Origin: a virus
Taxonomy: Duplodnaviria; Caudoviricetes
Length of the DNA: 55,003 nt
Direction: 5' to 3' (one strand)
IMG/VR virus record: IMGVR_UViG_3300049489_001135
Coordinates: 1 to 55,003 of that record
Position 1 is the first letter of the stretch, and each line of letters starts with the position of its first letter. A program made the position numbers and the translations under genes. Below the pieces are notes generated by a model, which did no database searches, was not told the DNA's origin, and saw nothing but the letters and a program-made list of their open reading frames with translations. Below are positions 1-53,252 of this stretch, one piece after another.

Positions 1-153
1 GAGGGCGGCGTGGAAGCCTTGTTGAAAATCAGTTTCAGCAAGATTATATGGAATCCAATCTTCAGCATCAATTGCCTCTCCAGGATACTTCTTATCGGCA
101 TAATTCTCTGCCAACTCCTCACACTTCTCCTCAATCTCTTTGCGCGTGGTCAT
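1..153 (-). CDS. partial small hypothetical protein (MTTRKEIEEKCEELAENY...GFHAAL), runs off the window start
   Basis: Hand translation; ATG at 153 preceded by GAGGAG; frame open to base 1. Confidence 0.6.
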   Translation of the reverse strand, partial: MTTRKEIEEKCEELAENYADKKYPGEAIDAEDWIPYNLAETDFQQGFHAAL

Positions 154-372
154 AGCACTCCTCATATTTTACAGACAAATAAAAAGCGAATCTCCAGAAT
201 CTAACCATCTTATAGGTATAGTTACCTGAATGTGATTCATAAAATACTAAAGCAAAGCTCATCGCTCGACTCCTCTGCGCGTGGTCATTTGCCTCTCCAT
301 TCCCACATGCACATACCAATGTATATGCCGCCAAATAGTGTTGCTATTATCATTAGCCATTGTACTAGCAAC

Positions 373-618
373 TCACTCATCGCTCGGGCCTTTCTGGGTT
401 TTATTAAAAGGTATATGTTCAATTTTTATACATCCTGTTCCATAGGTGATTGCGTCTAATTGTGCTTTCATCATTTCGCTTAAAAATTTTGCATATACAT
501 ATTCATTTTTTGGTTCAACTTTTTTGCTTAAAAATACTAAAAATCTTGCTAATTGTTTTCTTAACTGAAACCATTTAGGATTTTTTGTTACCTCTATTTC
601 AAACATAAAATCTCCCAT
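373..618 (-). CDS. hypothetical protein
   Basis: In tightly packed - strand gene run; promoter directly upstream. Confidence 0.6.
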   Translation of the reverse strand: MGDFMFEIEVTKNPKWFQLRKQLARFLVFLSKKVEPKNEYVYAKFLSEMMKAQLDAITYGTGCIKIEHIPFNKTQKGPSDE

Positions 619-625
619 CTGCTAC

Positions 626-654
626 AGTATATTGCAATTAAAGTGCCTAGTCAA
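626..654 (-). promoter_or_regulatory. sigma70-type promoter with a sigma54-like motif in its spacer
   Basis: TTGACT-17 bp-TATACT; spacer contains AGGCACTTTAATTGCA (633-648). Confidence 0.6.
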
Positions 655-859
655 TAGCACCAGAATGCCAATCACGAGGTTTTGGCTGTTCAAGATTTAA
701 GGGCATGCCTAAAGATTGTACATAATTTTCAAATGCAATTAAAGTGCAACTTATTGGAAATACGTGGCTGTCCAACGCGGTATTAGTGGTAGTTTTTACC
801 AAATATAAAGCATTATCATATATTTTTTGCAGAGCAATTTCATCTAGTTTTATATGCAT
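647..859 (-). CDS. hypothetical protein
   Basis: Abuts neighbours in the - strand run. Confidence 0.6.
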   Translation of the reverse strand: MHIKLDEIALQKIYDNALYLVKTTTNTALDSHVFPISCTLIAFENYVQSLGMPLNLEQPKPRDWHSGAID

Positions 860-860
860 G

Positions 861-1322
861 TTATTTGCCTTTATTGGGCGTAGAGTGTAGCACGGAAACC
901 GGGGTCAACGCGGAGCGCGGTATTTTTCGACCCACAGTGGTCCATCTAGAGTTTTTAATTTCAACAAGCGACGGATTATTTACCAAAATATATGTCTGTA
1001 GTTCATACAGCAAATCGTGCACATTAAATACATAAGCTATGCCAGGATTTTGAAAGTAATATACAAACCACTCACAGCCGTCTTGTTCTGCTTTGTAAGG
1101 GCCGCCTAATTTGCCAGATTCTATATCGCCTAAATATTCGATAAAAAAATTACTAGTTTTTGAATGGTCATAGCGGTCGCATTTTATTTCTACAAGCTCT
1201 CCATTAGGTAGCACGGCATCAGCACCTTTGCCGTTTAACAACACTAATTCGGGCCACAATTTTTGCACGGCAGCTTCGCCAGATTTACCGGCTTCTAAAT
1301 CACGCTTAAAATTTGGTTTCAC
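861..1322 (-). CDS. PD-(D/E)XK superfamily nuclease-like protein
   Basis: GKSGE...ADAV...VEIKCD...NFFIEY pattern typical of small phage restriction-fold nucleases. Confidence 0.65.
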   Translation of the reverse strand: MKPNFKRDLEAGKSGEAAVQKLWPELVLLNGKGADAVLPNGELVEIKCDRYDHSKTSNFFIEYLGDIESGKLGGPYKAEQDGCEWFVYYFQNPGIAYVFNVHDLLYELQTYILVNNPSLVEIKNSRWTTVGRKIPRSALTPVSVLHSTPNKGK

Positions 1323-1576
1323 TTTTTTCTCCCTGGAGTGCTAGGCACATGCTCTATTGATAATATTAATCTGTAACAAAATAAATCTAATTCTAAAAAT
1401 ACTCCGCAAACGTGATAATAGTCTTTTTTACGCCGCACCAATGCTTTAAAAGTATTGCCATATATTCCAAGCCAGCGATTATTTTCTATACCGTCTTTAT
1501 AGCACAATGCCTCAAAAGATAGGCCATGTGAAAGATTAAGTTTATGATACATCAAAACTCTCCGATAACATGCCAA
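1319..1576 (-). CDS. hypothetical protein
   Basis: Overlaps neighbours; true start probably the internal Met. Confidence 0.5.
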   Translation of the reverse strand: MACYRRVLMYHKLNLSHGLSFEALCYKDGIENNRWLGIYGNTFKALVRRKKDYYHVCGVFLELDLFCYRLILSIEHVPSTPGRKK

Positions 1577-1833
1577 TCAGAATTTTTTTCTACAACGCCT
1601 TCGCGCTCTACGTATCCTATGCGTCTAGCCGTGCCAGTATCAAGTCCAAGCAATCCTGAGTGGCCGCCCTCATATTCTTCGTAGTCATCTGTTGCAATAT
1701 AACGCACAAAAGGAATTAAGTTGGTTATTGCGACTAAATTCCAACCTTCGGAGCTAATACCTAGTTCATCAGTATATATGTTGTACATAATAAGCAGCGG
1801 CACATCTGGAGTATCTCTAATAAATATGCTCAT
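1552..1833 (-). CDS. hypothetical protein
   Basis: Tightly packed ORF. Confidence 0.55.
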   Translation of the reverse strand: MSIFIRDTPDVPLLIMYNIYTDELGISSEGWNLVAITNLIPFVRYIATDDYEEYEGGHSGLLGLDTGTARRIGYVEREGVVEKNSDWHVIGEF

Positions 1834-1834
1834 A

Positions 1835-2029
1835 TTATCTGGCGTTCCTTTCTAAGCTTAGCTCTTGTAAGCAACGTATTGCTACAATAAAACTTTTGTC
1901 ATTAGCACGGTCCATGATTTTGTGAATCTTAAACATGCCATGTAGCGCAATGAATTGCAAGATAATTAGCACGGCTAGTCCCAATATGAGACAATTTTTA
2001 GCAGATTTAAAAAACTGTAGAATTTGCAT
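1835..2029 (-). CDS. small membrane protein
   Basis: One hydrophobic segment CLILGLAVLIILQFIAL. Confidence 0.6.
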   Translation of the reverse strand: MQILQFFKSAKNCLILGLAVLIILQFIALHGMFKIHKIMDRANDKSFIVAIRCLQELSLERNAR

Positions 2030-2030
2030 A

Positions 2031-2576
2031 TCAATCCTTATGTTTAATAGTAAAGGTCCATTCTAACTCAAATAGACCGTTTTTGGAAATTAAATTTTTA
2101 GGTACTGGCAGCAAGTGGCAGGTCCAGAGAGTATCTATAGCAACTTGTTTAAGCTTTTGTGAACAATTATTTTGCACAGTTACAATGCTGATAATTGTGC
2201 CGTTTGGTAGTGCGTCTATATTTAGCACGGTGCTACAAGCTTTTACAGGAAGCCGGGCTCGGTCAATATTTGAGTGCCAGTTTGGGTCAATATGGGCATG
2301 TAGTCGTTCAATGAAATGCAGGGCCGTTAAGGTTGTGCCTAGGTCGCGTTTTTGTTTAAGGTAGTCGGGGCTACCTACTCGAGGGCCGCTTGCCGGATTT
2401 AAGTTTAGCTTCTTGCCAGCAGGTTTTTTGGTTTTCTTTTTGTCCCCGGTGCTATAATTTATTGCAATCGGCTGCAACTGTCTTGCATTCTTCCGCGTAC
2501 CAAAGCTATACAACGCAGCACCGTGTAGCAGCGAAGAAAAAAGAAGACAAAAAACCACGCGCCGATTAGTCGCCAA
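2031..2576 (-). CDS. TonB/TolA-like energy-transducer family protein
   Basis: N-terminal TM helix with SxxxH (FSSLLHG), Lys/Pro linker, C-terminal TonB_C-like pattern (IDALPNGTI...VAIDTL...LPVPKNL...EWTF). Confidence 0.65.
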   Translation of the reverse strand: MATNRRVVFCLLFSSLLHGAALYSFGTRKNARQLQPIAINYSTGDKKKTKKPAGKKLNLNPASGPRVGSPDYLKQKRDLGTTLTALHFIERLHAHIDPNWHSNIDRARLPVKACSTVLNIDALPNGTIISIVTVQNNCSQKLKQVAIDTLWTCHLLPVPKNLISKNGLFELEWTFTIKHKD

Positions 2577-2627
2577 CTACTACCCATAAAGCTATAATTA
2601 TTAAACAGATTACAAATACCATGCCTT

Positions 2628-2657
2628 AAGCATACTTTAGTTGCCTACTTCTTGCAA
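2628..2657 (-). promoter_or_regulatory. sigma70-type promoter for the TonB-like gene
   Basis: TTGCAA-17 bp-TATGCT; opposite strand reads TTGCCTACTTCTTGCA, a degenerate sigma54-like motif. Confidence 0.55.
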
Positions 2658-2659
2658 GC

Positions 2660-3370
2660 TTAATGACTGTCTTCTCGCATAAAATCTGGAAAGTTTTCTG
2701 ACCACCAGCCCGGGTCTAACCGTAGTCCATTGGGCAGCTCAACTGGCATACCGCGTACCATGGATTCGTCGGCCAATTGATGCTTAGTATAATCAGGATG
2801 TAGCATGCCGTTTGCATGTGACTTATTCCAAGCCAGCATGTCGTTCGATAGCTTTTGTATGTGGTAGTATAGCCAGTATAGGCTTTTTCGCAATTTATAT
2901 TTTTGCCGACACCCGGCATGAATCTCGCGATACGTTTTGCCCTCATTTAGCCGGGCCAATATATAGGCGTCCATTCTGCGGCTTTTAAATTGATAATGCG
3001 TAAGGTAATTTTGAAGCAGGCGAAAAAACTGGGCACGGCTTGGGCTCCAAGGTTTGCCTTTAGCCATACTACCTCGCAAGTGGTCTGAGTTCTGACCAAG
3101 GCCGGTTTTATGGTCTACCCATTCAATATCTTTGAAGCCCATTTTGGCTAATTTATCGTACCATTTTTTTTGCAATTTGGTAAATTTTGAAGGGTCGGTT
3201 TTTGTAGCAGCGGGGATGGGGAGGCCAGCGGCGCGAAGCTTTTTCTTGGTTATTTTTCTTTGCCGTTTTTTGGTATTCTTTGTTAGCCCGCCCTGCTTAT
3301 ATTGCTTATGGGGACCGTTTATATTTGAGGAAAATTTTTTGGTGGGGGGTGCCTTCTTTTTTTGTGCCAC
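2660..3370 (-). CDS. basic protein with probable helix-turn-helix; candidate transcription regulator
   Basis: Lys-rich N-terminus; ILARLNEGKTYREIH...SLYWLYYHI resembles a sigma region 4/LuxR-type HTH; RBS AAGGA; first gene of the leftward arm. Confidence 0.5.
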   Translation of the reverse strand: MAQKKKAPPTKKFSSNINGPHKQYKQGGLTKNTKKRQRKITKKKLRAAGLPIPAATKTDPSKFTKLQKKWYDKLAKMGFKDIEWVDHKTGLGQNSDHLRGSMAKGKPWSPSRAQFFRLLQNYLTHYQFKSRRMDAYILARLNEGKTYREIHAGCRQKYKLRKSLYWLYYHIQKLSNDMLAWNKSHANGMLHPDYTKHQLADESMVRGMPVELPNGLRLDPGWWSENFPDFMREDSH

Positions 3371-3415
3371 TATTAGGTCCTTTTTTTAGACCCCCGGGGT
3401 ATCGAGGGCTTTATT

Positions 3416-3803
3416 AGCATTCTCCATGCCAAATTTTTGCGGGTTTTTTTTCTGGCCGTGCAATTTCCGTGCCATATTAGGCAACCGGGGTGGCATATTT
3501 CTTGCATACATCTGCATAAAATAGGCCAAAAATCTCGCATACTTATTGCATTTTTATGCAAAAAACATGCCACGCGTATATATTATAATCATTTGGCACG
3601 AATATTGCAAGACAATTTGCCTACTTTCTGCATATGATTTGCCATCGATTTGCTCATTCCACGGCACGCCACGAACGCAAAATGCAGGAAATAGGCAGGC
3701 AAATGGCCGAAAATCGGCAAAATCGCGCCGAGTTAACAGATTTTGGGTAGTTTGGGGCATTTTTCTGGCATTTTTTGGCAGAATGGGTGGCAGGGGGAAT
3801 GCA
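3416..3803. promoter_or_regulatory. array of sigma54 (RpoN) -24/-12 motifs on both strands
   Basis: Eight TGGC-N8-TGC copies: 3416-3431(-), 3459-3474(-), 3491-3506(+), 3513-3528(-), 3557-3572(-), 3594-3609(+), 3629-3644(-), 3788-3803(+), plus degenerate copies. Confidence 0.75.
3582..3610 (-). promoter_or_regulatory. sigma70-type leftward promoter
   Basis: TTGCAA-17 bp-TATAAT, overlapped on the opposite strand by TGGCACGAATATTGCA. Confidence 0.6.
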
Positions 3804-3895
3804 AGGTGGCTTGACGCTCTTTTTCACGTCTATATATAAATAAATTTTTGTAGCACATGGATTAAAATGAGACAAAAATATTTTTGCAAATTTGT

Positions 3896-3922
3896 TTAAG
3901 TTTTTTTTGCATGGTCCGATAA
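3896..3922 (+). promoter_or_regulatory. sigma28 (FliA)-like promoter
   Basis: TTAAGTTT-11 bp-TCCGATAA versus consensus TAAAGTTT-N11-GCCGATAA; 40 bp upstream of the first rightward ATG. Confidence 0.5.
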
Positions 3923-3961
3923 GTATGTATAAGCCAATTAAGGCAGAAACTAGGAGTAAAT

Positions 3962-4078
3962 ATGTTTCAAATATTATGTGGTATGGTTTGTAGTATAGTG
4001 GTAATAGCATTTATGTACTCTCAAGGCGATTTTGCCGAGCGAAAAAATCGCAAAATTTCTAGCCGAGATAATGAGTAA
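3962..4078 (+). CDS. 38-aa membrane micro-protein, first rightward gene (absent from the ORF track)
   Basis: MFQILCGMVCSIVVIAFMYSQGDFAERKNRKISSRDNE; strong RBS TAGGAG. Confidence 0.6.
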   Translation: MFQILCGMVCSIVVIAFMYSQGDFAERKNRKISSRDNE

Positions 4079-4081
4079 ATT

Positions 4082-4279
4082 ATGGACAATATTAAAAGTA
4101 TGTTCCAAAAATTTATAGCAGATTTAGAGCAAAGACTGAATGCAGACGATGCGCCGTGGGCACGTGGCTATTTTAGAGGGCAGATTGATGCTTATAAAGT
4201 AGCTTTAATGCTTATAGATACAGAAATTTTGCTTAAGTCTGTAGCAGAAAAATCCGAAGAGATTAATAACAAGGAGTAA
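4082..4279 (+). CDS. hypothetical early protein
   Basis: Packed + strand run. Confidence 0.65.
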   Translation: MDNIKSMFQKFIADLEQRLNADDAPWARGYFRGQIDAYKVALMLIDTEILLKSVAEKSEEINNKE

Positions 4280-4282
4280 ATT

Positions 4283-4519
4283 ATGGTTTATAGAACTAAG
4301 TTTCAAGGTGAGCAGGTAGAAATTGAATATGGTATCGACTCATATGGTGAATTTTACGTTGAGGGAGCATGGTACGTGCCGAGTGAAGTACAATTGGATG
4401 CCTTAGAGCAGCACGAAATTGTAGCTCAATGTAAAGCAGGTATGATTGAAAAACTTGGGTGGCAATTTAGCACACCTGATGCTAAATCGGATGCTTATTA
4501 CAGCAAAAATAGGGAATAG
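4283..4519 (+). CDS. hypothetical acidic early protein
   Basis: RBS AAGGAG. Confidence 0.7.
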   Translation: MVYRTKFQGEQVEIEYGIDSYGEFYVEGAWYVPSEVQLDALEQHEIVAQCKAGMIEKLGWQFSTPDAKSDAYYSKNRE

Positions 4520-4521
4520 CC

Positions 4522-4674
4522 ATGAAAAAATATTTAGTAGCTAAATTAAGTGCTAAACAGGTGGAAACTATTAAACAACTTAAAGGCTTAATAGTCTCAA
4601 AAGGAGACAGCAATTTGATAGAAGTTTACTTGCCGACTAAACATGTTAAACTATTTGTAGTAAAGGGGAACTAA
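4522..4674 (+). CDS. 50-aa hypothetical protein (absent from the ORF track)
   Basis: MKKYLVAKLSAKQVETIK...VKGN exactly fills the gap; AGGGA upstream. Confidence 0.6.
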   Translation: MKKYLVAKLSAKQVETIKQLKGLIVSKGDSNLIEVYLPTKHVKLFVVKGN

Positions 4675-4677
4675 ATT

Positions 4678-4935
4678 ATGCGCAAAAGATTTTATTTAGA
4701 AATTCAAACTAGTGGTGATGAAGTTTCGGGCTTTGAAGACAGATATAATTGGTTAAATTATGATACTATTGTAGCCGAGGGGAATACGCTTGAAGAGTGT
4801 TTAGAAGATGCAACAGTATTCACCATGGACCAAGACGGCGGTGAGGGTCCTCAAATTGAGGGCGATGCAGATTGGGTGCAGGAATTAGTAGTAGATGCAT
4901 TTATAACTAAACTTTTAAAACAAAAGGTAGGCTAA
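4678..4935 (+). CDS. hypothetical acidic protein
   Basis: RBS AAGGGG; Asp/Glu-rich. Confidence 0.7.
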   Translation: MRKRFYLEIQTSGDEVSGFEDRYNWLNYDTIVAEGNTLEECLEDATVFTMDQDGGEGPQIEGDADWVQELVVDAFITKLLKQKVG

Positions 4936-4938
4936 TTT

Positions 4939-5421
4939 ATGGGTTACACACATTATTGGTCTTTTGAGGCACCTAAGCGTGGCACTGCGCAGGTAGTTGA
5001 AAAAAATTATCAGCGTGCTATAAAACAGTGCAATAAAATTATCAAGCATTATGCAGCGCAGCACGGTGGGCTATCTGGCTATTCAGCGCACGCCAAAGGC
5101 TACGGTGGATTGCATGTTAATGGTAGCCGTGAAAATGCCCATGAGGATTTTATCGTTCGGGAACATTTTTCTCAAAATGATACAGGCGATTTTTGTAAAA
5201 CCGCTCAAAAGCCTTACGATGTAGTAGTAGTAGCGTGCCTAATAGTATTAAAGCATTATTTGCCAGATAATATTCAGGTAGACAGCGATGGTGAAAAATC
5301 AGACTGGATTAATGGGCTAGAACTGGCACGTAAAGTATTAAAGCTAAAATCATTGCAAATACCTGTATCAATACGAGGCAATGCGTTGAAATTAGTTGGC
5401 TATATTTTTGAGGCGGTTTAA
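4939..5421 (+). CDS. conserved phage hypothetical protein
   Basis: MGYTHYW...HEDF...FCKTAQKPYD...SDG pattern that I recognise from phage early regions. Confidence 0.7.
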   Translation: MGYTHYWSFEAPKRGTAQVVEKNYQRAIKQCNKIIKHYAAQHGGLSGYSAHAKGYGGLHVNGSRENAHEDFIVREHFSQNDTGDFCKTAQKPYDVVVVACLIVLKHYLPDNIQVDSDGEKSDWINGLELARKVLKLKSLQIPVSIRGNALKLVGYIFEAV

Positions 5422-5469
5422 TATTAACTTATAGGCATGCAATACCGTATGCCTAGAATGGGGGAAATT

Positions 5470-6276
5470 ATGAGTCAATTAGCAATAAAGAATCCAATTT
5501 TAGCAACTAATGCGGCGCCAACAATGAGCCAAAAGTATGGGTTTGTTAATTCTGCAGCAGTACTAGACGTGTTTAAAGCTCAAGGCTGGATTGAGTCTCA
5601 AACTATTTACTCAAAAGTGCTTAAAGCAGATAAAGCAGGGTTTCAAAAGCATATGGTATGGTTAAAAAATCCTAATTTGCCTTTAGTGCACGGTCTCAGT
5701 AAATCTAACCAAACTGAAGTGCAACTATGTTTAGTAAATAGTCACGACGGCACGTCTAGAATGAGCATTTTTCTAGGCTTAATGCGTGCAGCGTGCTTAA
5801 ATCAATTAATTGGTGGAACAATTTTTAAGTATTTCCATGCAGTGCATAGCCAAAATGTAGTTCAGCGATTGCCTCAAGGCATTGATTATGTAGTTCAAGG
5901 CATTCCAGAATTGATTGGTAGCATTCAAGATTTACAGCAAAAAACTTTAAACCTAGACCAAAGGATTGAATTAGCCTCTAAAGTGCTACCTTTACGCTTT
6001 GAAAATGTTAAAAATTTAATTGATTTTGATTTGCGTATTGTTGAGCAATCTTTAAGGACTCAAGACGACGCTCAAGATGCGTATACCGTGCTAAATAGAT
6101 TGCAAGAATATTTGATTAGAGGTGGTATTCCTTTTAGCTACATTAAGCACGTTAAAGATTTAAAGGGCAATATTATCGGTCAACAAACCGTAAATACTAG
6201 AACTAAAAAAATTGCATCAATTTCTAGGCAAATTGAGCTAAATCAGGCATTATTTAATGCAGTAAAGGTGGCTTAA
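5470..6276 (+). CDS. DUF932/DUF945 family protein
   Basis: SQKYGF...KHMV...LVNSHDGTS...GLMRAACLNQL...NRLQEYLIRGG...LNQALF; start moved to the Met at 5470 after GGGGA. Confidence 0.8.
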   Translation: MSQLAIKNPILATNAAPTMSQKYGFVNSAAVLDVFKAQGWIESQTIYSKVLKADKAGFQKHMVWLKNPNLPLVHGLSKSNQTEVQLCLVNSHDGTSRMSIFLGLMRAACLNQLIGGTIFKYFHAVHSQNVVQRLPQGIDYVVQGIPELIGSIQDLQQKTLNLDQRIELASKVLPLRFENVKNLIDFDLRIVEQSLRTQDDAQDAYTVLNRLQEYLIRGGIPFSYIKHVKDLKGNIIGQQTVNTRTKKIASISRQIELNQALFNAVKVA

Positions 6277-6278
6277 TT

Positions 6279-7100
6279 ATGAACACGTTAATCAAAAACC
6301 AAAAACGGCGTATTGAGGCACTTAGAAATTTTAGCACGTTGTCTGAAAAACAGCGTGCAAATTTGCTTAAAAAATTGCAATCAAACAATTTATTGACTCC
6401 AGATTTTGCAAATACTAAAACTGCAAAAAACATGGGCTTTGGTTATCTAAGCATGATTTTGCATTTAGCACCTAGCAATTTGAGTGGCTACAATACGTGC
6501 CCCGCTGCCAGTGCTGGCTGTAAAGCTGCATGCTTAAACACTGCAGGCCGTGGGCGCTTTGAGTCAATTCAACTAGCACGTATTCAAAAAACTTTATATT
6601 TTGTTAAAGCACGCGAAATTTTTATGCATCAATTGTTTAGCGAGTTGCAGGCATTGGAGCGCCGTGCTGCCAAAGCAGGTCTTAAGGCAGTGGTCCGATT
6701 AAATGGCACCAGTGATTTACCGTGGGAAAATTTGCGACTCGATGGGTTAAATGTGTTTGAAAAATTTCCTAACATTCAATTTTACGACTACACAAAGGTC
6801 CTTAAGCGCATAGAATATTTTGCAAAAAATCCAATTGCAAATTATGATTTAACGTTTAGCGCCGCAGAGGACAACGAGGCCAATTGGCGTGCTGCTTTAA
6901 GCCTTGGATTTAATGTAGCAATGGTATTCATTGCAATACCAGAACAATATTTTGGTATTAAGACAATAAACGGCGATGCGCATGATTTAAGATTTACAGA
7001 TTTAAAGGGCGGCTACATTGTGGCGCTCAAGGCCAAAGGTCAAGCGAAAAAAGATGTATCTGGCTTTGTTAAACATATTTATGCAATAAAGGCAGCCTAG
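6279..7100 (+). CDS. GP88 family protein (radical-SAM-like Cys cluster)
   Basis: LAP...CPAASAGCKAACLNTAGRG, RLNGTSD, QFYDYTK, LTFS, NGDAHDLRF, LKAKG. Confidence 0.8.
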   Translation: MNTLIKNQKRRIEALRNFSTLSEKQRANLLKKLQSNNLLTPDFANTKTAKNMGFGYLSMILHLAPSNLSGYNTCPAASAGCKAACLNTAGRGRFESIQLARIQKTLYFVKAREIFMHQLFSELQALERRAAKAGLKAVVRLNGTSDLPWENLRLDGLNVFEKFPNIQFYDYTKVLKRIEYFAKNPIANYDLTFSAAEDNEANWRAALSLGFNVAMVFIAIPEQYFGIKTINGDAHDLRFTDLKGGYIVALKAKGQAKKDVSGFVKHIYAIKAA

Positions 7101-7101
7101 C

Positions 7102-7275
7102 ATGCAACAATATATCTTTATACATAGGCGCCTAGGCTATCGATTTGCAGTAGAGGCATTAAACTTTTATCATGCAGTAGACTTATTGCAGTCAATATTG
7201 GGTGCTGAAAAATATTGGATTGCAGACTATATTTGCCTATCTGGTGGTATAGAGGTGGGCTATAAAGCGGCCTAA
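7102..7275 (+). CDS. 57-aa hypothetical protein (absent from the ORF track)
   Basis: MQQYIFIHRRLGY...GYKAA, starts just after the upstream stop. Confidence 0.5.
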   Translation: MQQYIFIHRRLGYRFAVEALNFYHAVDLLQSILGAEKYWIADYICLSGGIEVGYKAA

Positions 7276-7297
7276 TTTAATCAAAAAAACTATTCTA

Positions 7298-7726
7298 GTG
7301 GCCGGATTGCTTAATTGTAGTCCGGTTTTTGGCATTTGCACGCCTACAGATTCAATGCTTAAAATTTTGCATAATGGTGCTACAAAGCACGGTATAGAGC
7401 CCTCATTAGTGGTTGCAATTGCTAATGTTGAGTCTTGCTTTGGCAAATATAAGCACAATAAACATTCGCATGATTTTGGTTTAATGCAGATTAACCGCAG
7501 AAATTTGGCATCTATTGGACTATCAGAGCATGAGGCATTGCACAATGATAGCAGAAATTTGCACGCGGCGTTGACCATGCTACAAAAATTGCAACGTCAA
7601 GGCTTAAGGCGTGGCGTGCCGTGGCAGTGTCGCTATAACATAGGCAACCAGACTTCGAATGCAGCTTTAAAAGCCTGCAATTCCTATTTAAGCAAATTAA
7701 AAAATGCTGGATGGAACGAACAATAA
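7298..7726 (+). CDS. lytic transglycosylase (SLT domain)
   Basis: AIANVES (catalytic Glu), DFGLMQIN, RYNIG; frame is open further upstream and gives a signal-peptide-like stretch. Confidence 0.85.
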   Translation: MAGLLNCSPVFGICTPTDSMLKILHNGATKHGIEPSLVVAIANVESCFGKYKHNKHSHDFGLMQINRRNLASIGLSEHEALHNDSRNLHAALTMLQKLQRQGLRRGVPWQCRYNIGNQTSNAALKACNSYLSKLKNAGWNEQ

Positions 7727-7837
7727 AAAATTTGCACTTAACCTTAAGCCTTTAAATGCGAAAAATACTAAAGTGTAGACCTTAAACATACTTTGTGCAA
7801 TCTTTAGACAACGTACTGCAATAAAACGTTTTAAAGT

Positions 7838-7853
7838 TGGCCGTACTATTGCA
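7838..7853 (+). promoter_or_regulatory. sigma54-type motif
   Basis: TGGCCGTACTATTGCA in intergenic DNA. Confidence 0.5.
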
Positions 7854-7966
7854 ATACATATCAGAGTAGTGCGCTTAAAAATGGCACGTAAAATTCTGAT
7901 GCGTATTATTTTGCAACATATATCAGGCTGGGAATTTTAAATTTGAAAATTGGTTTTTGAAAAATC

Positions 7967-8051
7967 GGTCTGGACTTTTGAAATTATATTTTGGAAACGA
8001 AAATGCAAATCAAAAATCGGAATTTAAAAATTTGGTCTGGACTTTTGAAAT
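7967..8051 (+). repeat. 18-bp direct repeat in A/T-tract-rich DNA
   Basis: GGTCTGGACTTTTGAAAT at 7967-7984 and 8034-8051. Confidence 0.85.
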
Positions 8052-8116
8052 ATTTTTTTGCAATTCAATTTCAGAAATTCTACAGTAATTACGCATATTT
8101 ACGAAAGGCGGCTGCT

Positions 8117-8578
8117 ATGATAATGTCCACATTGCTCTGTCTCATGCTCACAAACTGCGCAGAAAAAATTCCTCGAACATTTCAAGTGCCCGATAGCGTA
8201 CTACCACATATTTTAGAGTTTGAATTGCAAGCGGCGTTGCACGGTAAGCCAATACATATTACTGATTTGATTGTAAAATTAAAGCCGGAGTTGAGCAATG
8301 ATGCTGCAGTTGGCATGTGCTATTATGGCACAAGTAAAGAGCCACCTGAAATACATTTTTTGCAGTGGTATTGGAATTTAGCAAATGATGCTCATAGAGA
8401 AAATTTAGTGTTTCACGAGTTAGGGCATTGTGTGCTGAATAGAGACCATGTTAATCGCATAAATTTAGATGGTGTGCCGGAAAGTATTATGAATTATTCT
8501 CTCATGGAGCCGTATCAATATGAGATGAATCGAGCTATTTTGTTGCAAGAATTGTTTAATGATGTTAATCTACATTAA
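8117..8578 (+). CDS. lipoprotein zinc metallopeptidase (metzincin-like)
   Basis: Lipobox-like LTNC; HELGHCVLNRDH (HExxHxxxxxxH); SIM Met-turn. Confidence 0.8.
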   Translation: MIMSTLLCLMLTNCAEKIPRTFQVPDSVLPHILEFELQAALHGKPIHITDLIVKLKPELSNDAAVGMCYYGTSKEPPEIHFLQWYWNLANDAHRENLVFHELGHCVLNRDHVNRINLDGVPESIMNYSLMEPYQYEMNRAILLQELFNDVNLH

Positions 8579-8597
8579 GATTTAAAAAGGAGAATTT

Positions 8598-9128
8598 ATG
8601 CAAGAAACTATAGTGCGAATGCTAGGAATTATTTCAGTGGTTACTGTAGCATTAATTATGCTTATGCTACTTACTGCATGCGGTAGTAAGCCGAAAGTTA
8701 GTAACCAGGATGAACAAATTAAGCAGTTACAACGACAATTGCAGCAGCAAATAGTTTTGGGCCAGGAGCAGGCAGAGTTATTGCAGGAAATTTTAGCAGC
8801 GGATGCGGGGACGCAGGCACAGCTTGTTTATGTAACCCAAGCGCTAAATGTTGTTCAAGGAAACGTGAACTCATTGCTTCTTCAGGTAGCTGAATTGCAA
8901 GATTATAGTAACATTGTTGAAATGATAGACCCTTGTGGTGATAATATTAACAAGATTGATGAAGTCTTGTTGGCATTAAGCAGTGGCGAAATTTTGGCTA
9001 GCTTTTCAGACAATGCTAATGGCTTGAATACTAGATTTGGTTTGTTAAAAGCTGGTAATTATGTTACAACTGATGGGACAAATTGTCATTTTCAAGTGCT
9101 GTCTAATGGCAATGTGGTTTGGAACTAA
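8598..9128 (+). CDS. coiled-coil lipoprotein
   Basis: RBS AGGAG; lipobox LTAC; Gln-rich coil; C-terminal PCGD...TTDGTNC domain. Confidence 0.75.
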   Translation: MQETIVRMLGIISVVTVALIMLMLLTACGSKPKVSNQDEQIKQLQRQLQQQIVLGQEQAELLQEILAADAGTQAQLVYVTQALNVVQGNVNSLLLQVAELQDYSNIVEMIDPCGDNINKIDEVLLALSSGEILASFSDNANGLNTRFGLLKAGNYVTTDGTNCHFQVLSNGNVVWN

Positions 9129-9137
9129 GGAGTAAAT

Positions 9138-9371
9138 ATGAATGCAAAAGAAGCAAATAATTTGGCAAAACAAGGTGATTTTGGAAATCAATTACTTAGT
9201 GCTATTAGCGACATTAAAGAAGCTGCTAAAGAAGGTTCGTTTAGGGTGCTATTAAATTCTAATTCATATACAAGTGAGGCACTACGTTTAGAACTAATTA
9301 AATTAGGGTATTTTGTAAGATTTGGTTCAGATAATACTTTGATTGTAAGTTGGGCAGATGTTAAGGATTAA
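9138..9371 (+). CDS. hypothetical protein
   Basis: RBS AAGGAG. Confidence 0.7.
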   Translation: MNAKEANNLAKQGDFGNQLLSAISDIKEAAKEGSFRVLLNSNSYTSEALRLELIKLGYFVRFGSDNTLIVSWADVKD

Positions 9372-9777
9372 ATTGTCGTTTTCGGCAATTGGGACGTTTA
9401 ATGGTAGGCCGATTGTTTGTGTCTATATGTGACCAATTTTTCGTAGCGGTAGGTTGTTCTTGCCACAAATTAAGCTTTTCAAGTAAGTCTTGTTGAGGGT
9501 CTAAAGAAAGCCACGCATCAATAGCACCATCAGGGTCAGCAAAATCACAAGCTTTGCACACCATATGAGCGGATTTTTTAGCACCATTTGCGGCTGCATT
9601 TTGGGCCGGGCTTCTATACCCGCTAGAAACTTTAAAAGGCTTGCCACCAGCTTTTAGATACGCAGTCTCAAGGTCAAATAACGCTGCATGTAAGGCTTTA
9701 AGATTGGCCTTTTGGTCTGCAGGTAATTCATCATATTTTATACGCCCCATGAGGATAGCGTCTATTGTCAAGGCCAT
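9361..9777 (-). CDS. peptidase M15 family zinc peptidase (candidate endolysin)
   Basis: SSGYRS...N...GAKKSAH...ACD...WSHID. Confidence 0.85.
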   Translation of the reverse strand: MALTIDAILMGRIKYDELPADQKANLKALHAALFDLETAYLKAGGKPFKVSSGYRSPAQNAAANGAKKSAHMVCKACDFADPDGAIDAWLSLDPQQDLLEKLNLWQEQPTATKNWSHIDTNNRPTIKRPNCRKRQFNP

Positions 9778-9781
9778 GGTA

Positions 9782-9820
9782 TGGCTATTTGTTTGCAATT
9801 TTTGTAGCTTATGATATGCT
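9782..9820 (+). promoter_or_regulatory. sigma70-type promoter overlapped by a sigma54-like motif
   Basis: TTGCAA-16 bp-TATGCT with extended TG; TGGCTATTTGTTTGCA at 9782-9797. Confidence 0.5.
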
Positions 9821-9826
9821 GGTGAT

Positions 9827-9997
9827 ATGAGTAATATTAGGCAGATAAATGTAGCACGCGAATTAAAACGGCAGAAAAAACGTCGCGAATTTACGCGCAG
9901 GATTTTTTGGTGGTTAATTGCTTTTGCTATTGCATTTTTTGCTGCTAAACACGTTGCAAATACAAATCAAAATAGTTCAACAATTACAAGTAGTTAG
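9827..9997 (+). CDS. 56-aa membrane protein, possibly leaderless (absent from the ORF track)
   Basis: Basic N-terminus then IFWWLIAFAIAFFAA; ATG lies 7 nt after the -10 box. Confidence 0.55.
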   Translation: MSNIRQINVARELKRQKKRREFTRRIFWWLIAFAIAFFAAKHVANTNQNSSTITSS

Positions 9998-10005
9998 GAG
10001 ATGCC

Positions 10006-10782
10006 GTGCCAAATGATTTACTAAACACAGACCCAGAATATGGACTACCACACTATTTAGGAAAAAATGGTGTTTATGATGGCGGAGACTGTTGTGCAAA
10101 TACATTTAGTGTAAATTATGCTAATGTAGTTACTTATGGAGAAGAATTGTTTCCAGCAGCATTTTTTCTGTTGACTACTGCAGATGGTTGGCCAGTTCGT
10201 AGCCCGGATTCTAGTAAGTGGTATGGGCGGCGTAAAAGATGCTCTCGGGACCAACTTACGCCATATTTATGCTATGCTGCTATTACAGATGATAAATATT
10301 TTTATAGTTTGCTAGGAGCTATGACAAAACATGCTTTCTGCCTTGCTAATAACTCCATACGAAATTTTGTATATGAAGATGAGCAAGAACACTTGCAAAA
10401 AAGCACACCAGACGTGAAGTGGCGCCCAAAATGGAAGCTTCCCGATTTACTCGGACCTGATATTTGGCAGATTTGGGCACGCGGATTAATACTTAGAAAT
10501 AAGGCATGGAATATTTTACGGCCCATAGTTTGGCTTGGTGATTTACAAAATTTTTTGGCAGTGTTGCCATACGTTTTTAAGCCGAGAGTAGGCATAACCG
10601 ATGAGAGAAATTTGGCATTAAAAGTTCATTTTGCAGCCAATTTTGCACCCACAATATTATCCAAATATACCTACAAATTGTACCAAAGCACAAAGCCGCA
10701 GGAAGCATTTACAAAATTTTGGACGCAGCCAGGAGAGCCCGCAGTTCACATTTTTATGAACAGGCTTTATAGCAAGGATTAG
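10006..10782 (+). CDS. hypothetical protein
   Basis: RBS AGGAG; 258 aa. Confidence 0.75.
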   Translation: MPNDLLNTDPEYGLPHYLGKNGVYDGGDCCANTFSVNYANVVTYGEELFPAAFFLLTTADGWPVRSPDSSKWYGRRKRCSRDQLTPYLCYAAITDDKYFYSLLGAMTKHAFCLANNSIRNFVYEDEQEHLQKSTPDVKWRPKWKLPDLLGPDIWQIWARGLILRNKAWNILRPIVWLGDLQNFLAVLPYVFKPRVGITDERNLALKVHFAANFAPTILSKYTYKLYQSTKPQEAFTKFWTQPGEPAVHIFMNRLYSKD

Positions 10783-10870
10783 CAACGATTTTAAAAAGCC
10801 GAGTGATTACAGATGGTTAGACAATACCGGGCTTAAAATAGCACCAAAACAGAGAAAAAGGACCAAAAAA

Positions 10871-11098
10871 TTGACGACCAAAATTTTAATATCAGACCTT
10901 GAGCAGGCTATAAAGTATCTTAAAACTCGTTCTACGGCCTATACAGTGCACGTAAAGTGCGAGGACGTGGAAATGACTATTAGCACGGTGGACGCAGCAG
11001 GGCAAGCATTGCAGATTCGCCTGTTTGATGCAGATAAAAGCCAATCTAAGGCTAAAGTAGTGGTAACTGAGACTTTAGATTCTTTATGCAAGAAGTAG
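10871..11098 (+). CDS. hypothetical protein
   Basis: RBS AAGGA, TTG start. Confidence 0.65.
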   Translation: MTTKILISDLEQAIKYLKTRSTAYTVHVKCEDVEMTISTVDAAGQALQIRLFDADKSQSKAKVVVTETLDSLCKK

Positions 11099-11104
11099 GA
11101 TAAC

Positions 11105-11338
11105 TTGGGCAAAGTAGTGTTTCTTTCTGAGACAAAATTGCAAATAAGATTGCGTTGTTTGGCTTGCGGCCTTATCATGAGAAAGCAGGCTGTAAGCAGG
11201 TATCATTGGTGCAGGTGTGATAGATGTAGCAGTGAGTACGTTACGACTTGTTTGCAGTTGAAAGTAATTGATGGGCAGAGGGTATTAGCAGCTAATCCAA
11301 AAGGGAAACTTTCGATAGCGCGGTTTGAAAAAGCCTAA
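11105..11338 (+). CDS. zinc-ribbon protein
   Basis: CLAC...CDRC. Confidence 0.6.
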   Translation: MGKVVFLSETKLQIRLRCLACGLIMRKQAVSRYHWCRCDRCSSEYVTTCLQLKVIDGQRVLAANPKGKLSIARFEKA

Positions 11339-11385
11339 TGATTGCAAGTAGTTAGCTATGGCCGGGCTTAAAAAAGGAGAAAAAT

Positions 11386-11637
11386 ATGTTAATATCAGCT
11401 TTATTCGTCGGTCTCTGCCTAGGATTTAGTGCCTACCACCTGTTTGTTGCTCGCTATATTTTGCAACAAGGTATGTCAATTGGTATGCAATACGCTGCTA
11501 AAGATTTGCTAGAATTTATGCATTCTTTAGAATCTAATGATAAAGCGTATTTAGAAGACTTGATGCAAAATTTTAGCTATAATCGCAAACTGCGTGAATC
11601 GTTGGCCAGAGTTAGGCAAAGTAAAGGCAAGGAGTAG
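11386..11637 (+). CDS. membrane-anchored hypothetical protein
   Basis: RBS AAGGAG; hydrophobic N-terminus. Confidence 0.7.
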   Translation: MLISALFVGLCLGFSAYHLFVARYILQQGMSIGMQYAAKDLLEFMHSLESNDKAYLEDLMQNFSYNRKLRESLARVRQSKGKE

Positions 11638-11639
11638 GT

Positions 11640-11891
11640 ATGCATTATGCTGTAACATGTTGGGTGACTTTTGCAGTAATTTGGCAAGGTAAACCTAATA
11701 CTGCAAATTATGAGCTTAAGGGTTATGAAGTAAAAGAAATAAACTCTTCTTATAGCTTGGTAGATTTTACGGCAGCTATGAAGGCTACTGGTTTGCAGTA
11801 TACCGGCAATACTGTGCGACCAATAAACATGACACTTTGTAAATACACAAATCCTGAAAATATAAAGTTTTTTAATTCTAGAGGCAAATAG
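11640..11891 (+). CDS. hypothetical protein
   Basis: RBS AGGAG. Confidence 0.65.
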   Translation: MHYAVTCWVTFAVIWQGKPNTANYELKGYEVKEINSSYSLVDFTAAMKATGLQYTGNTVRPINMTLCKYTNPENIKFFNSRGK

Positions 11892-24604: not shown

Positions 24605-24632
24605 AGTATATCTTATGGCATGGTTATTGCAA
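24605..24632 (-). promoter_or_regulatory. sigma70-type promoter overlapped by an opposite-strand sigma54 motif
   Basis: TTGCAA-16 bp-TATACT on -; TGGCATGGTTATTGCA at 24616-24631 on +. Confidence 0.55.
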
Positions 24633-37455: not shown

Positions 37456-37469
37456 GGTTAGCTCCAATA

Positions 37470-37485
37470 TGCAATAAATATGCCA
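37470..37485 (-). promoter_or_regulatory. sigma54-type motif
   Basis: TGGCATATTTATTGCA in the short gap between nozzle and GNAT genes. Confidence 0.55.
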
Positions 37486-53224: not shown

Positions 53225-53252
53225 AGCATATCAGTTGGCACGAAAATTGCAA
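53225..53252 (-). promoter_or_regulatory. sigma70-type promoter overlapped by an opposite-strand consensus sigma54 motif
   Basis: TTGCAA-16 bp-TATGCT (extended TG) on -; TGGCACGAAAATTGCA at 53236-53251 on +. Confidence 0.6.

What the first reader, a model, noticed from the sequence alone, without database searches (positions are those of the whole stretch)
3416..3803. Dense two-strand array of sigma54 (RpoN) binding motifs at the transcription divergence point: candidate RpoN-holoenzyme sponge or switch
Seen: eight exact TGGC-N8-TGC copies in under 400 bp. They are TGGCATGGAGAATGCT (3416,-), TGGCACGGAAATTGCA (3459,-), TGGCATATTTCTTGCA (3491,+), TGGCCTATTTTATGCA (3513,-), TGGCATGTTTTTTGCA (3557,-), TGGCACGAATATTGCA (3594,+), TGGCAAATCATATGCA (3629,-) and TGGCAGGGGGAATGCA (3788,+). 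Near matches also occur at 3535, 3617, 3639, 3683 and 3704. Spacers differ while the GG-N10-GC register is fixed, which suggests selection on binding rather than simple duplication. A rough base-composition estimate gives well under one chance copy in this span. Known: the sigma54 consensus is TGGCACG-N4-TTGC(A/T); sigma54 holoenzyme forms stable closed complexes and needs an AAA+ enhancer-binding protein (bEBP) to fire. No GAFTGA-type bEBP is visible in this window. Inference: one promoter per direction would suffice, so the array may titrate host sigma54-RNAP once the genome replicates, silence the phage until a host bEBP signals a permissive state, or act as a roadblock.
Basis: partly seen in the sequence, partly recalled or inferred. 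Interest (0 to 1): 0.9.

Follow-up and report, generated by a model that had tools for sequence, protein, structure and literature searches.

The report
Phage array of sigma-54-type promoter sites
The control region between the two divergent gene trains of this uncultured freshwater phage is packed with sequences that match the binding site of the bacterial sigma-54 RNA polymerase, often as mirror-image pairs, and the same mirror-image module turns up in many other uncultured phages but hardly ever in bacterial genomes.

Summary
Eight exact TGGC-N8-TGC sites lie at 3417-3802, out of 28 in the 55-kb window. Six score at least 10 of 12 against TGGCACG-N4-TTGCW, versus 0.08 expected in shuffles.

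The repeated unit is an ordered two-part 16-mer with a fixed 11-bp register. It sits in the only divergent intergenic region of a complete phage genome that encodes no rpoN and no bEBP.

Three syntenic relatives (L001, L020, L022) carry the same kind of array at the same place. Inner sites form face-to-face pairs. This palindrome matches at least 120 IMG/VR contigs but only 11 stretches in 596 Gb of prokaryote genomes. A swapped-element control matches none.

Unconstrained positions follow real sigma-54 sites. The neighbouring 236-aa helical protein does not co-occur with the module.

Best reading, confidence 0.5: host sigma-54 holoenzyme sites that act as bidirectional promoter cassettes, with an unknown activator. 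A sponge role, a phage-protein operator, and a pac site or origin remain possible. Nothing was tested biochemically, and the host is unknown.

The parts
3416..3431 (-). Sigma-54-type site TGGCATGGAGAATGCT, 10 of 12. It is the leftmost site and points at the 236-aa gene. Inferred start near 3405, about 35 nt before the GTG at 3370.
   Evidence: start point inferred from the rule that the C of the GC is position -12
3459..3474 (-). Perfect consensus site TGGCACGGAAATTGCA, 12 of 12, pointing left. Inferred start near 3448.
3491..3528 (.). Face-to-face pair 1: TGGCATATTTCTTGCA (+) and TGGCCTATTTTATGCA (-) with a 6-nt gap. Inferred start points near 3517 (rightward) and 3502 (leftward).
   Evidence: repeats D1, I1
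3535..3572 (.). Face-to-face pair 2: TCGCATACTTATTGCA (+, lacks the GG) and TGGCATGTTTTTTGCA (-, 11 of 12) with a 6-nt gap. It is a 44-bp tandem copy of pair 1.
   Evidence: (D1: 75% identity)
3594..3609 (+). Perfect consensus site TGGCACGAATATTGCA, 12 of 12, pointing right. It mirrors 3459-3474 about a centre near 3532. On the minus strand it overlaps a sigma-70-like TTGCAA-17-TATAAT (3610 to 3582).
   Evidence: (I2: 84% complementary)
3629..3644 (-). Weaker site TGGCAAATCATATGCA, 9 of 12.
3682..3787 (+). Run of GGCA, GGCC and TGCA blocks spaced 10-12 bp apart and separated by A/T tracts. It includes GG-N10-GC matches at 3686, 3693, 3704, 3744 and 3755. Role unknown.
3788..3803 (+). Rightmost site TGGCAGGGGGAATGCA, 10 of 12, pointing at the rightward genes. 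Inferred start near 3814. A TTGACG (3811-3816) and a TATATA (3833-3838) follow it.
   Evidence: the sigma-70-like hexamers are my own reading and were not listed
2660..3370 (-). First leftward gene: a 236-aa basic protein with a helical core (residues 106-196) that weakly resembles sigma region 4 and LuxR-type HTH domains. It heads the gene train that runs on into the packaging and head genes.
   Evidence: (no Pfam or PHROG family)
3962..4078 (+). First rightward ORF (38 aa, AGGAG 7 nt upstream). It starts the train that holds the DUF932, GP88, SLT, primase and DNA polymerase genes.
   Evidence: the ORF itself is my reading
53236..53251 (+). Isolated perfect site TGGCACGAAAATTGCA in an intergenic gap, antisense to the surrounding minus-strand genes. 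On the minus strand it reads TTGCAA-16-TATGCT just upstream of gene 52994-53206.
24616..24631 (+). Isolated site TGGCATGGTTATTGCA, 11 of 12, intergenic and antisense to the minus-strand genes. On the minus strand it reads TTGCAA-16-TATACT upstream of gene 24091-24561.
37470..37485 (-). Isolated site TGGCATATTTATTGCA, 10 of 12, intergenic, 14 nt before the ATG of gene 37120-37467.

Best explanation
The 3416-3803 array is a cluster of RpoN (sigma-54)-type -24/-12 elements read by the host's sigma-54 RNA polymerase. It forms the bidirectional control region of the phage.

The outer sites (3416 and 3459 leftward; 3594 and 3788 rightward) would fire outward. Leftward lies the train that starts with the 236-aa protein and runs on into the packaging and head genes. 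Rightward lies the early and replication train.

The inner sites form two tandem mirror-image pairs. Each pair would be a compact bidirectional cassette. By the -12 rule the two start points lie 15-19 bp apart and diverge. Each start lies inside the partner's recognition element, so only one polymerase can occupy a cassette at a time.

The phage encodes no canonical enhancer-binding ATPase. Opening must therefore come from a host bEBP acting from solution on these T-rich, near-consensus sites, or from an unknown phage factor.

Shown: the sites, their enrichment, their ordered geometry, their conservation in relatives, and the wide, virus-specific spread of the paired module.
For: (1) Enrichment: 6 sites at >=10 of 12 in 581 bp, versus 0.083 in 2000 shuffles and 0.075 per 581 bp in the rest of the window.

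(2) Ordered unit: in the arrays of the window, L001, L020 and L022, GGCA followed by TGCA at exactly 11 bp occurs 19 times. The reverse order occurs 2 times, GGCA-GGCA 3 times and TGCA-TGCA 2 times.

(3) Conservation: the syntenic relatives L001 and L020, and L022, hold arrays in the equivalent 600-800-bp region upstream of the homologue (divergent junction shown for L001 and L020; L022 is a 2-kb locus and was not checked). The 16-mer TGGCACGATTCTTGCA is exact in L001 (7497), L020 (2697) and L022 (808, 860), and L022 756 has CGGC in place of TGGC, although protein identity is only 30-44%.

(4) Orientation: the outermost sites point at the flanking genes in the window, L001 (left side), L020 and L022 (right side).

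These fall into 56 DNA-level groups and 33 groups by shared neighbouring proteins. A swapped-element palindrome of the same composition matches 0 contigs.

(6) Free positions of 236 distinct half-sites follow sigma-54 sites. Position 7 is G 141, A 87, C 5, T 3. Position 8 is T-poor (13 of 236). The base before TGGCA is T in 135 of 236. In the 29 intergenic ChIP-supported Salmonella sites printed in PMC3844500, position 7 is G 19 and A 10, and position 6 is C 17, T 11, G 1 (counted by hand). Window sites differ from the hycA and zraP sites in that table at 1 and 2 of 16 bases.

(7) Context: the pairs lie between divergent genes in 49 of 102 non-edge loci, against 14% of all gene junctions, and in gaps with a median of 558 bp. 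In the largest family, every member of the four largest conserved neighbouring-gene clusters is transcribed away from the pair (48 of 48, 43 of 43, 31 of 31, 29 of 29).

(8) Two MAGs whose bins hold array-bearing contigs encode rpoN.

(9) Sigma-54-type promoters in a phage have precedent: phage YuA (record annotation; passage in PMC10914365).
Against: The host is unknown, so the presence of rpoN in it is untested. Three further MAGs that hold single matches showed no rpoN, though their completeness is unknown.

No bEBP is found in the window, in 4 related records, or in 50 array-bearing virus records. The 2 hits there were weak partial AAA+ matches; the one I read looks MoxR-like (my own reading; no family search) and has no GAFTGA. 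No enhancer sequence could be identified.

Sites spaced about 22 bp apart cannot all hold a holoenzyme at once.

Two of the three best sites outside the array (53236, 24616) point against the local genes. A third (37470) would leave only about 4 nt of leader.

The spacer is identical in three distant relatives, which is more than a sigma-54 site needs.

Sigma-70-like promoters that could drive both gene trains also lie in the region (and my own reading).

No RNA data exist.
Confidence: 0.5

Rival explanations
1. The sites do bind sigma-54 holoenzyme, but their main job is not to make RNA. Stable closed complexes on many near-consensus sites, multiplied by genome replication, would soak up the cell's small sigma-54 pool. 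They could also occlude the overlapping sigma-70-like promoters.
For: There are more sites than two promoters would need: 8 exact plus near matches here, and up to 12 within 400 bp in other phages. No activator is encoded. Three strong sites (3594, 24616, 53236) lie on the opposite strand over the -35 and spacer of sigma-70-like promoters that point with the genes. The 3788 site ends 8 bp before a TTGACG. Mirror-image packing allows only one polymerase per pair, which suits competition.
Against: No binding or titration data exist. The sigma-70 overlap is not seen at the equivalent sites of L001 or L022, by my reading. The module's placement at divergent junctions, with all neighbours transcribed away from it, is what promoters would show. 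A decoy could lie anywhere.
Confidence: 0.12
2. The 16-mers are operators for a phage-encoded DNA-binding protein and only resemble sigma-54 sites. The obvious candidate is the adjacent 236-aa helical protein. It would bind the mirror-image pairs and set the balance between leftward and rightward transcription.
For: The protein's gene always adjoins the array in the window, L001, L020 and L022. Its core (residues 106-196) gives weak structural matches to sigma region 4 and LuxR-type HTH domains: Z 4-7, rmsd 2-5 A, 50-88 residues aligned. The sites form palindromes, as operators do. The spacer is conserved beyond what sigma-54 needs. The site spacing of about 22 bp suits a small protein better than a polymerase.
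Against: None of the 131 other loci with the paired motif (L023-L153) holds a relative of the protein by tblastn at E <= 1e-3, within the stretches fetched. Of 22 loci with a relative, 18 have no array upstream (L002 has one site; L021 begins 12 bases before the homologue, so it could not show an array). The largest other family has an unrelated AT-hook protein in that position. The central gap varies from 2 to 6 nt, which a rigid dimer would not tolerate. The match to sigma-54 sites at free positions would have to be coincidence. The structural matches lie in the range the tool calls common, and Foldseek found nothing.
Confidence: 0.15
3. The array is a packaging (pac/cos-type) site or a replication origin. 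On this reading the repeats are bound by the small terminase or by an initiator at the head of the packaging module.
For: In both the window's lineage and the largest marine family, the array lies just upstream of a small basic protein that precedes the large terminase and the portal. In more distant relatives the 236-aa homologue sits 1-2 kb upstream of the large terminase. One of the weak fold matches is the N-terminal HTH of a small terminase (Z 4.9). Phased repeats with A/T tracts (3682-3803) and an AT-rich block (3574-3593) resemble what is known of pac sites and origins (from memory).
Against: The same motif would have to be kept by unrelated terminase or initiator proteins in 33 or more protein-level groups and across GC 0.32-0.62. 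Pac sites and iterons usually differ between phages (from memory). The strict -24 then -12 order and the likeness to sigma-54 sites would be unexplained. No genome ends were mapped.
Confidence: 0.1

Closest known systems
Bacterial sigma-54 (RpoN) -24/-12 promoters, such as the ChIP-supported Salmonella sites listed in PMC3844500
   Same: Same GG-N10-GC register and the same extended consensus, with two 12-of-12 sites in the array. The preferences at positions 6, 7 and 8 are the same. Back-to-back divergent sigma-54 promoters also exist in bacteria: the table lists adjacent hycA/hypA sites and adjacent zraP/hydH sites.
   Different: The sites occur as a dense two-strand array and as face-to-face pairs 2-6 nt apart. 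That arrangement is at chance level in 596 Gb of prokaryote genomes: 11 stretches, 4 of them in high-GC actinobacterial records whose two arms are identical or nearly so. No enhancer-binding protein or recognisable enhancer accompanies them. Function is untested.
Sigma-54-type promoters of Pseudomonas phage YuA
   Same: A phage without its own RNA polymerase that uses host -24/-12 promoters. Three promoter-trap fragments are annotated '-24/-12 consensus' in the YuA record. A passage in PMC10914365 mentions a sigma-54-like promoter.
   Different: In YuA these are single, weak matches inside the late region. My scan found no site above 10 of 12, no array and no pair. There is no sequence relationship to the window.
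Symmetrical bidirectional sigma-70 promoters (Warman et al. 2021; from memory, not read here)
   Same: One short, nearly palindromic element would give two diverging start points less than 20 bp apart.
   Different: That case rests on the symmetry of the -10 element of sigma-70 promoters. Here two complete sigma-54-type elements are interleaved. The start points are inferred, not mapped.
Phage operator arrays and terminase-binding repeats (lambda OR/OL, lambda cosB R sites, SPP1 pac; from memory)
   Same: Several protein-binding repeats in both orientations, in the control region next to the first gene of an operon or next to the small terminase gene.
   Different: Those sites are specific to each phage's own protein. 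This motif is shared by many unrelated phages and equals a host factor's consensus.

Membership tests
sigma-54-dependent promoter | GG and GC doublets exactly 10 nt apart (-24/-12) | tested here: met
   There are 8 exact TGGC-N8-TGC sites at 3417-3802. The ordered 11-bp register dominates, 19 against 2, 3 and 2.
sigma-54-dependent promoter | Extended consensus TGGCACG-N4-TTGCW, with the base preferences of real sites | tested here: met
   Sites score 12 of 12 at 3459(-) and 3594(+), 11 of 12 at 3557(-), and 10 of 12 at 3416, 3491 and 3788. The free positions of 236 half-sites follow the Salmonella ChIP-supported sites.
sigma-54-dependent promoter | Placed upstream of a gene and oriented towards it | tested here: inconclusive
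   Met for the outermost sites here and in L001, L020 and L022. Not met for 53236(+) and 24616(+), which are antisense. The inner pairs are ambiguous.
sigma-54-dependent promoter | The host encodes rpoN | not testable with these tools
   The host is unknown. The record is a virus from freshwater and sediment metagenomes. Two MAGs whose bins hold array-bearing contigs have rpoN, and three others showed none. Binning is weak evidence of host.
sigma-54-dependent promoter | A cognate enhancer-binding AAA+ activator and an enhancer | tested here: not met
   PF00158 is absent from the window and from 4 related records. In 50 array-bearing records there were only 2 weak partial AAA+ hits. A host activator cannot be excluded, and no enhancer was recognised.
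sigma-54-dependent promoter | Holoenzyme binding and rpoN-dependent transcription | not testable with these tools
   No RNA runs hold the phage. Biochemistry is needed.
operator array of the adjacent phage HTH protein | Protein and sites co-occur across phages | tested here: not met
   None of the 131 loci with the paired motif has a relative of the protein. Of 22 loci with a relative, 18 lack an upstream array (L002 has one site; L021 has almost no upstream sequence).
operator array of the adjacent phage HTH protein | The neighbouring gene encodes a sequence-specific DNA-binding protein | tested here: inconclusive
   No Pfam or PHROG family matches. The AlphaFold2 model has mean pLDDT 59.5, with a confident core at residues 110-190. 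Matches to sigma region 4 and LuxR HTH domains reach Z 4-7. Foldseek found nothing at E <= 0.001.
pac/cos site or replication origin | Genome ends or replication starts map to the element | not testable with these tools
   The record is classed 'linear, no end repeats'. Synteny shows that it wraps. No end mapping is possible.

The most novel reading that the evidence does not exclude
A large, mostly uncultured set of phages (33 or more lineages, GC 0.32-0.62) has taken over the host's sigma-54 polymerase through a virus-specific mirror-image promoter cassette, and does so without a canonical enhancer-binding ATPase. Two mechanisms would fit. A small phage protein of unknown family could open sigma-54 closed complexes, giving an activator-bypass mechanism. 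Or the arrays could capture the scarce sigma-54 holoenzyme, both to drive phage genes and to shut down the host's sigma-54 regulon.
Probability: 0.2. Interest if true: 0.9.

Novelty: new variant of a known kind. Interest (0 to 1): 0.72.

Why it matters
Sigma-54 promoters are held to be silent without an ATP-driven enhancer-binding protein, and phages are rarely thought to depend on them. This work shows that a near-consensus sigma-54 motif, packed into mirror-image pairs and arrays, marks the main divergent control region of this phage and of many unrelated uncultured phages. Bacterial genomes almost never use that arrangement.

If sigma-54 really reads these sites, two things follow. Phage development in these hosts would be tied to the state of the host's sigma-54 activators, such as nitrogen status or membrane stress. 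And the missing activator becomes a direct question: either host bEBPs act promiscuously, or phages carry a new kind of sigma-54 activator.

Either way the module is a simple sequence marker for phage control regions in metagenomes.

Tried and rejected
Searches that gave no relatives:
- Megablast of window 1-12000 against cultured phages: no match.
- blastn (word size 11) of the array from the window, from L031 and from L048 against cultured phages: no match.
- tblastn of the major head protein: no match.
- The polymerase and the terminase have only distant cultured relatives, below 40% identity. The phage cannot be placed near a cultured one, and the host was not found this way.
- Single-protein scans of IMG/VR with the 236-aa protein and with DUF932: nothing. 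The alignment-based scan did work.
- Genome-contig scan with the protein alignment: nothing.

Other negatives:
- No tRNA and no Rfam family in the window.
- Sequencing runs: no RNA holder is listed. There are four DNA runs from freshwater, sediment and aquatic metagenomes. Their contigs match the window across the array where they cover it and show no variants there, so there is no population-level footprint.
- A MAFFT alignment of the three intergenic regions was too noisy to use as a footprint.
- Foldseek against the PDB found nothing at E <= 0.001 for the 236-aa model.

Ideas I dropped:
- That the basic unit is a single pentamer phased every 11 bp. The ordered pair dominates, although a short phased GGCA run exists at 3682-3803.
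- That the palindromes are RNA hairpins. The spacers of the two arms are not complementary.
- That sigma-70 promoters on the opposite strand explain the motif. That overlap holds for three window sites but not, by my reading, for L001 or L022.
- That YuA has the same architecture. It does not.

Limits of what I counted:
- Whether the pairs are enriched near contig ends was not counted, because locus flanks are uneven.
- The gene calls come from a crude longest-ORF script (minimum 50-60 aa). ORFs spanning the pair were masked.
- For one search I gave 50 of the 120 array-bearing loci, chosen for long contigs.
Supplements of papers were not opened; those of PMC3844500 and PMC10914365 might list more sites.
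- Not-in-print claim: four full-text searches and two more found no paper describing sigma-54-type site arrays or mirror-image pairs in phages. Subscription-only papers, including Ceyssens et al. 2008 on YuA, were not seen.
- From memory and not checked here: the Barrios et al. 1999 extended consensus, the cellular sigma-54 copy number, Warman et al. 2021, and the properties of T-rich nifH-type promoters.
Full report
WHAT IS THERE

The window is a whole IMG/VR virus record of 55,003 bp. CheckV estimates it 100% complete, and it is classed linear with no end repeats. A crude ORF call gives minus-strand genes at 131-3370, plus-strand genes from about 3962 to 24128, and minus-strand genes from 24091 to 54890. 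The region 3371-3961 is therefore the only divergent junction.

Family searches identify the main genes. On the right-hand train are DNA polymerase A, primase, DUF932, GP88 and an SLT lysozyme. On the minus strand are the large terminase, portal, head protein and proteases.

Synteny with two relatives shows that the record wraps. In L001 and L020 the homologue of the 236-aa gene (2660-3370) is followed directly by homologues of window 53.7 to 47 kb, including terminase and portal. So the leftward train starts with the 236-aa gene and runs into the packaging and head genes.

THE OBSERVATION

All eight TGGC-N8-TGC sites are present at 3417-3802, out of 28 in the window. Shuffles gave a mean of 10.3. 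Against TGGCACG-N4-TTGCW, with GG and GC required, region 3380-3960 has 6 sites at 10 of 12 or better. The mean in 2000 dinucleotide shuffles was 0.083, and no shuffle reached 6. The rest of the window has 0.075 such sites per 581 bp.

Two sites are perfect: 3459(-) and 3594(+). They are mirror images about a centre near 3532 (inverted repeat I2). Between them lie two tandem 44-bp units (repeat D1). Each unit is a plus-strand site followed 6 nt later by a minus-strand site. The leftmost sites (3416, 3459) point left towards the 236-aa gene, and the rightmost site (3788) points right.

WHAT THE UNIT IS

I asked whether the unit is a single pentamer phased at one helical turn or an ordered two-part element. 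In the arrays of the window, L001, L020 and L022, GGCA followed by TGCA at exactly 11 bp occurs 19 times. The reverse order occurs 2 times, GGCA-GGCA 3 times and TGCA-TGCA 2 times. The unit is therefore the ordered 16-mer, with the geometry of a sigma-54 promoter. A short run of phased GGCA blocks separated by A/T tracts does exist at 3682-3803. It is not explained.

RELATIVES

The 236-aa protein matches no Pfam or PHROG family. It has 9 relatives in the metagenome protein set. Scans with their alignment fetched 19 IMG/VR loci and 3 metagenome loci.

The closest syntenic loci, L001 and L020, and also L022, have a 600-800-bp region upstream of the homologue that holds the same kind of array. 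In L001 and L020 a gene on the far side runs the other way. L022 is a 2-kb locus whose far side was not checked. The 16-mer TGGCACGATTCTTGCA is exact in L001 (7497), L020 (2697) and L022 (808 and 860). The L022 site at 756 has CGGC in place of TGGC. Site subtypes such as TGGCCTATTT..TGCA recur. Protein identity to the window is only 30-44%.

The more distant loci with a homologue show no array upstream of it. L002 has a single site there and a small cluster elsewhere. L021 begins 12 bases before the homologue, so it could not show one. In the more distant relatives L003, L013, L015 and L019 the homologue sits 1-2 kb upstream of the large terminase, and in L003 and L015 it follows the polymerase.

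THE MIRROR-IMAGE PAIR IS WIDESPREAD AND VIRUS-SPECIFIC

Their GC ranges from 0.32 to 0.62. By blastn they fall into 56 groups. By any shared protein within 3 kb they fall into 33 groups.

The same pattern matched only 11 stretches in 596 Gb of prokaryote genomes:
- Four are in high-GC actinobacterial records. In two of them the two arms are identical, and in the other two they differ at one position.
- One is the same contig as an IMG/VR hit.
- Two (L152, L153) are multi-site arrays on MAG contigs.

Two controls of the same base composition were run. With the two elements swapped, 0 viral contigs matched. In back-to-back order, 17 matched.

Around the pairs, sites scoring at least 10 of 12 reach 6.7 per kb, against 0.20 per kb elsewhere in the same loci. 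Of the 120 loci, 93 have three or more sites within 400 bp. The window's array is thus a typical member of a class, not a one-off.

WHO READS IT

In 236 distinct half-sites, the positions my pattern left free behave like real sigma-54 sites:
- Position 7 is G 141, A 87, C 5, T 3.
- Position 8 is T in only 13 of 236.
- The base before TGGCA is T in 135 of 236.

The table of 29 intergenic ChIP-supported Salmonella sites printed in PMC3844500 (read as passages) gives, by my hand count, G 19 and A 10 at position 7, and C 17, T 11, G 1 at position 6. The phage sites show 156 C and 80 T at position 6. Window sites differ from the hycA and zraP sites in that table at 1 and 2 of 16 bases.

A phage-encoded reader would have to be shared by all these lineages, and I found none. 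The 236-aa family is absent from all 131 other motif-bearing loci, within the stretches fetched. The largest family has an unrelated AT-hook protein in that position.

The 236-aa protein's model is mediocre, with mean pLDDT 59.5. Its core at residues 106-196 gives only middling matches to sigma region 4 and LuxR-type HTH folds (Z 4-7). Foldseek found nothing.

A host factor with a universal consensus is the simplest reader. Nothing here shows binding.

WHAT IT DOES

The pairs lie between divergently transcribed genes in 49 of 102 non-edge loci, compared with 14% of all gene junctions in the same loci. The gaps they lie in have a median of 558 bp.

In the largest family (48 loci) the pair sits between two blocks. 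On one side are a small basic protein, the large terminase and the portal. On the other are an M15 peptidase, GP88 and others. Every member of the four largest conserved neighbouring-gene clusters is transcribed away from the pair: 48 of 48, 43 of 43, 31 of 31 and 29 of 29.

If the C of the GC is taken as -12, the two start points of a pair lie 15-19 bp apart and diverge, and each lies inside the partner's element. This is inference. On this reading a pair is a compact bidirectional promoter that one polymerase at a time can occupy, and arrays are repeated cassettes plus single outward sites.

The reading has clear weak points.
- No canonical activator is encoded. PF00158 is absent from the window and from four related records. 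In 50 array-bearing records there were only two weak partial AAA+ hits. The one I read looks MoxR-like (my own reading; no family search) and lacks GAFTGA.
- No enhancer could be recognised.
- Three strong window sites (3594, 24616, 53236) lie on the strand opposite to sigma-70-like promoters that point with the genes.
- The site at 37470 would leave almost no leader.

KNOWN COMPARISONS

Sigma-54-type promoters in a phage are known from YuA. Its record annotates three promoter-trap fragments with a -24/-12 consensus, and a passage in PMC10914365 mentions a sigma-54-like promoter. My scan of YuA found only weak single matches and no array. Six full-text searches found no description of such arrays or pairs in phages.

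HOST

The host is unknown. The phage occurs in freshwater and sediment metagenomes, with no RNA runs. Its genes have strong Shine-Dalgarno sequences. Two MAGs whose bins hold array-bearing contigs encode rpoN, and three others showed none. This is weak evidence either way.

VERDICT

The most likely reading, at 0.5, is host sigma-54 sites forming bidirectional promoter cassettes in the phage's master control region, with an unidentified source of activation. The rivals are sigma-54 titration or occlusion (0.12), a phage-protein operator (0.15), and a pac site or origin (0.10). The novelty is a new variant of a known kind, and interest is high because the module is widespread, virus-specific and apparently undescribed.

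Noticed in passing
window 3322-3357; L001 about 7751-7790; L020 about 2888-2915; L022 about 1020-1060: A run of C followed by AAAAAATTTTTT recurs near the start of the 236-aa gene. In the window it lies inside the 5' end of the ORF. In the three relatives it lies upstream of the gene, so it may be a DNA element rather than coding sequence.
   Followed up: no
window 53236-53251(+), 24616-24631(+): Two strong isolated sigma-54-type sites lie in intergenic gaps of the minus-strand gene train and point against it. They share the extension ATTGCAAG..TTTTTTGC with the 3594 site. On the minus strand they read as sigma-70-like promoters (TTGCAA-16-TATGCT and TTGCAA-16-TATACT) just upstream of genes. 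No site scoring 9 of 12 or better lies at the syntenic places of L001 or L020.
   Followed up: partly
window 3556-3610: Two sigma-70-like promoters face each other, with their -10 hexamers overlapping in TATATATTATAAT. On the plus strand I read ATGCAA-17-TATATT. On the minus strand one search lists TTGCAA-17-TATAAT.
   Followed up: no
L002 1-480: A long run of roughly 12-nt tandem units of the AAAGTTGAYCAGA type lies upstream of the 236-aa homologue, in two blocks.
   Followed up: no
window 50933-51679 and 51857-52366 (both minus strand): Two genes with ClpP-like or head-maturation-protease matches lie upstream of the large terminase, next to an acetyltransferase-like gene (52326-52805). This order is kept in relatives.
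   Followed up: no
L022 549-694 and 756-875: The array in this relative is built from tandem duplications. There are five in-phase copies (29-bp step) of a minus-strand unit with TGGTATAAATCTTGCA or TGGCATGAATCTTGCA, plus a sixth TGGTAT copy 28 bp before them. There are also three 52-bp copies of a plus-strand unit with TGGCACGATTCTTGCA; the first of these reads CGGC.
   Followed up: partly
L143, L144, L148, L150 (actinobacterial genome contigs): The few chromosomal matches in high-GC Actinobacteria are inverted repeats whose two arms are identical (L143, L144) or differ at one position (L148, L150). They are probably an unrelated element.
   Followed up: no
GP88 family: window 6279-7100; 17 other loci: GP88 (PF17338, cysteine-rich, function unknown) is the only protein cluster within 3 kb of the arrays that is shared between the window's lineage and other array-bearing loci found by the pair pattern (18 loci in all).
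   Followed up: no
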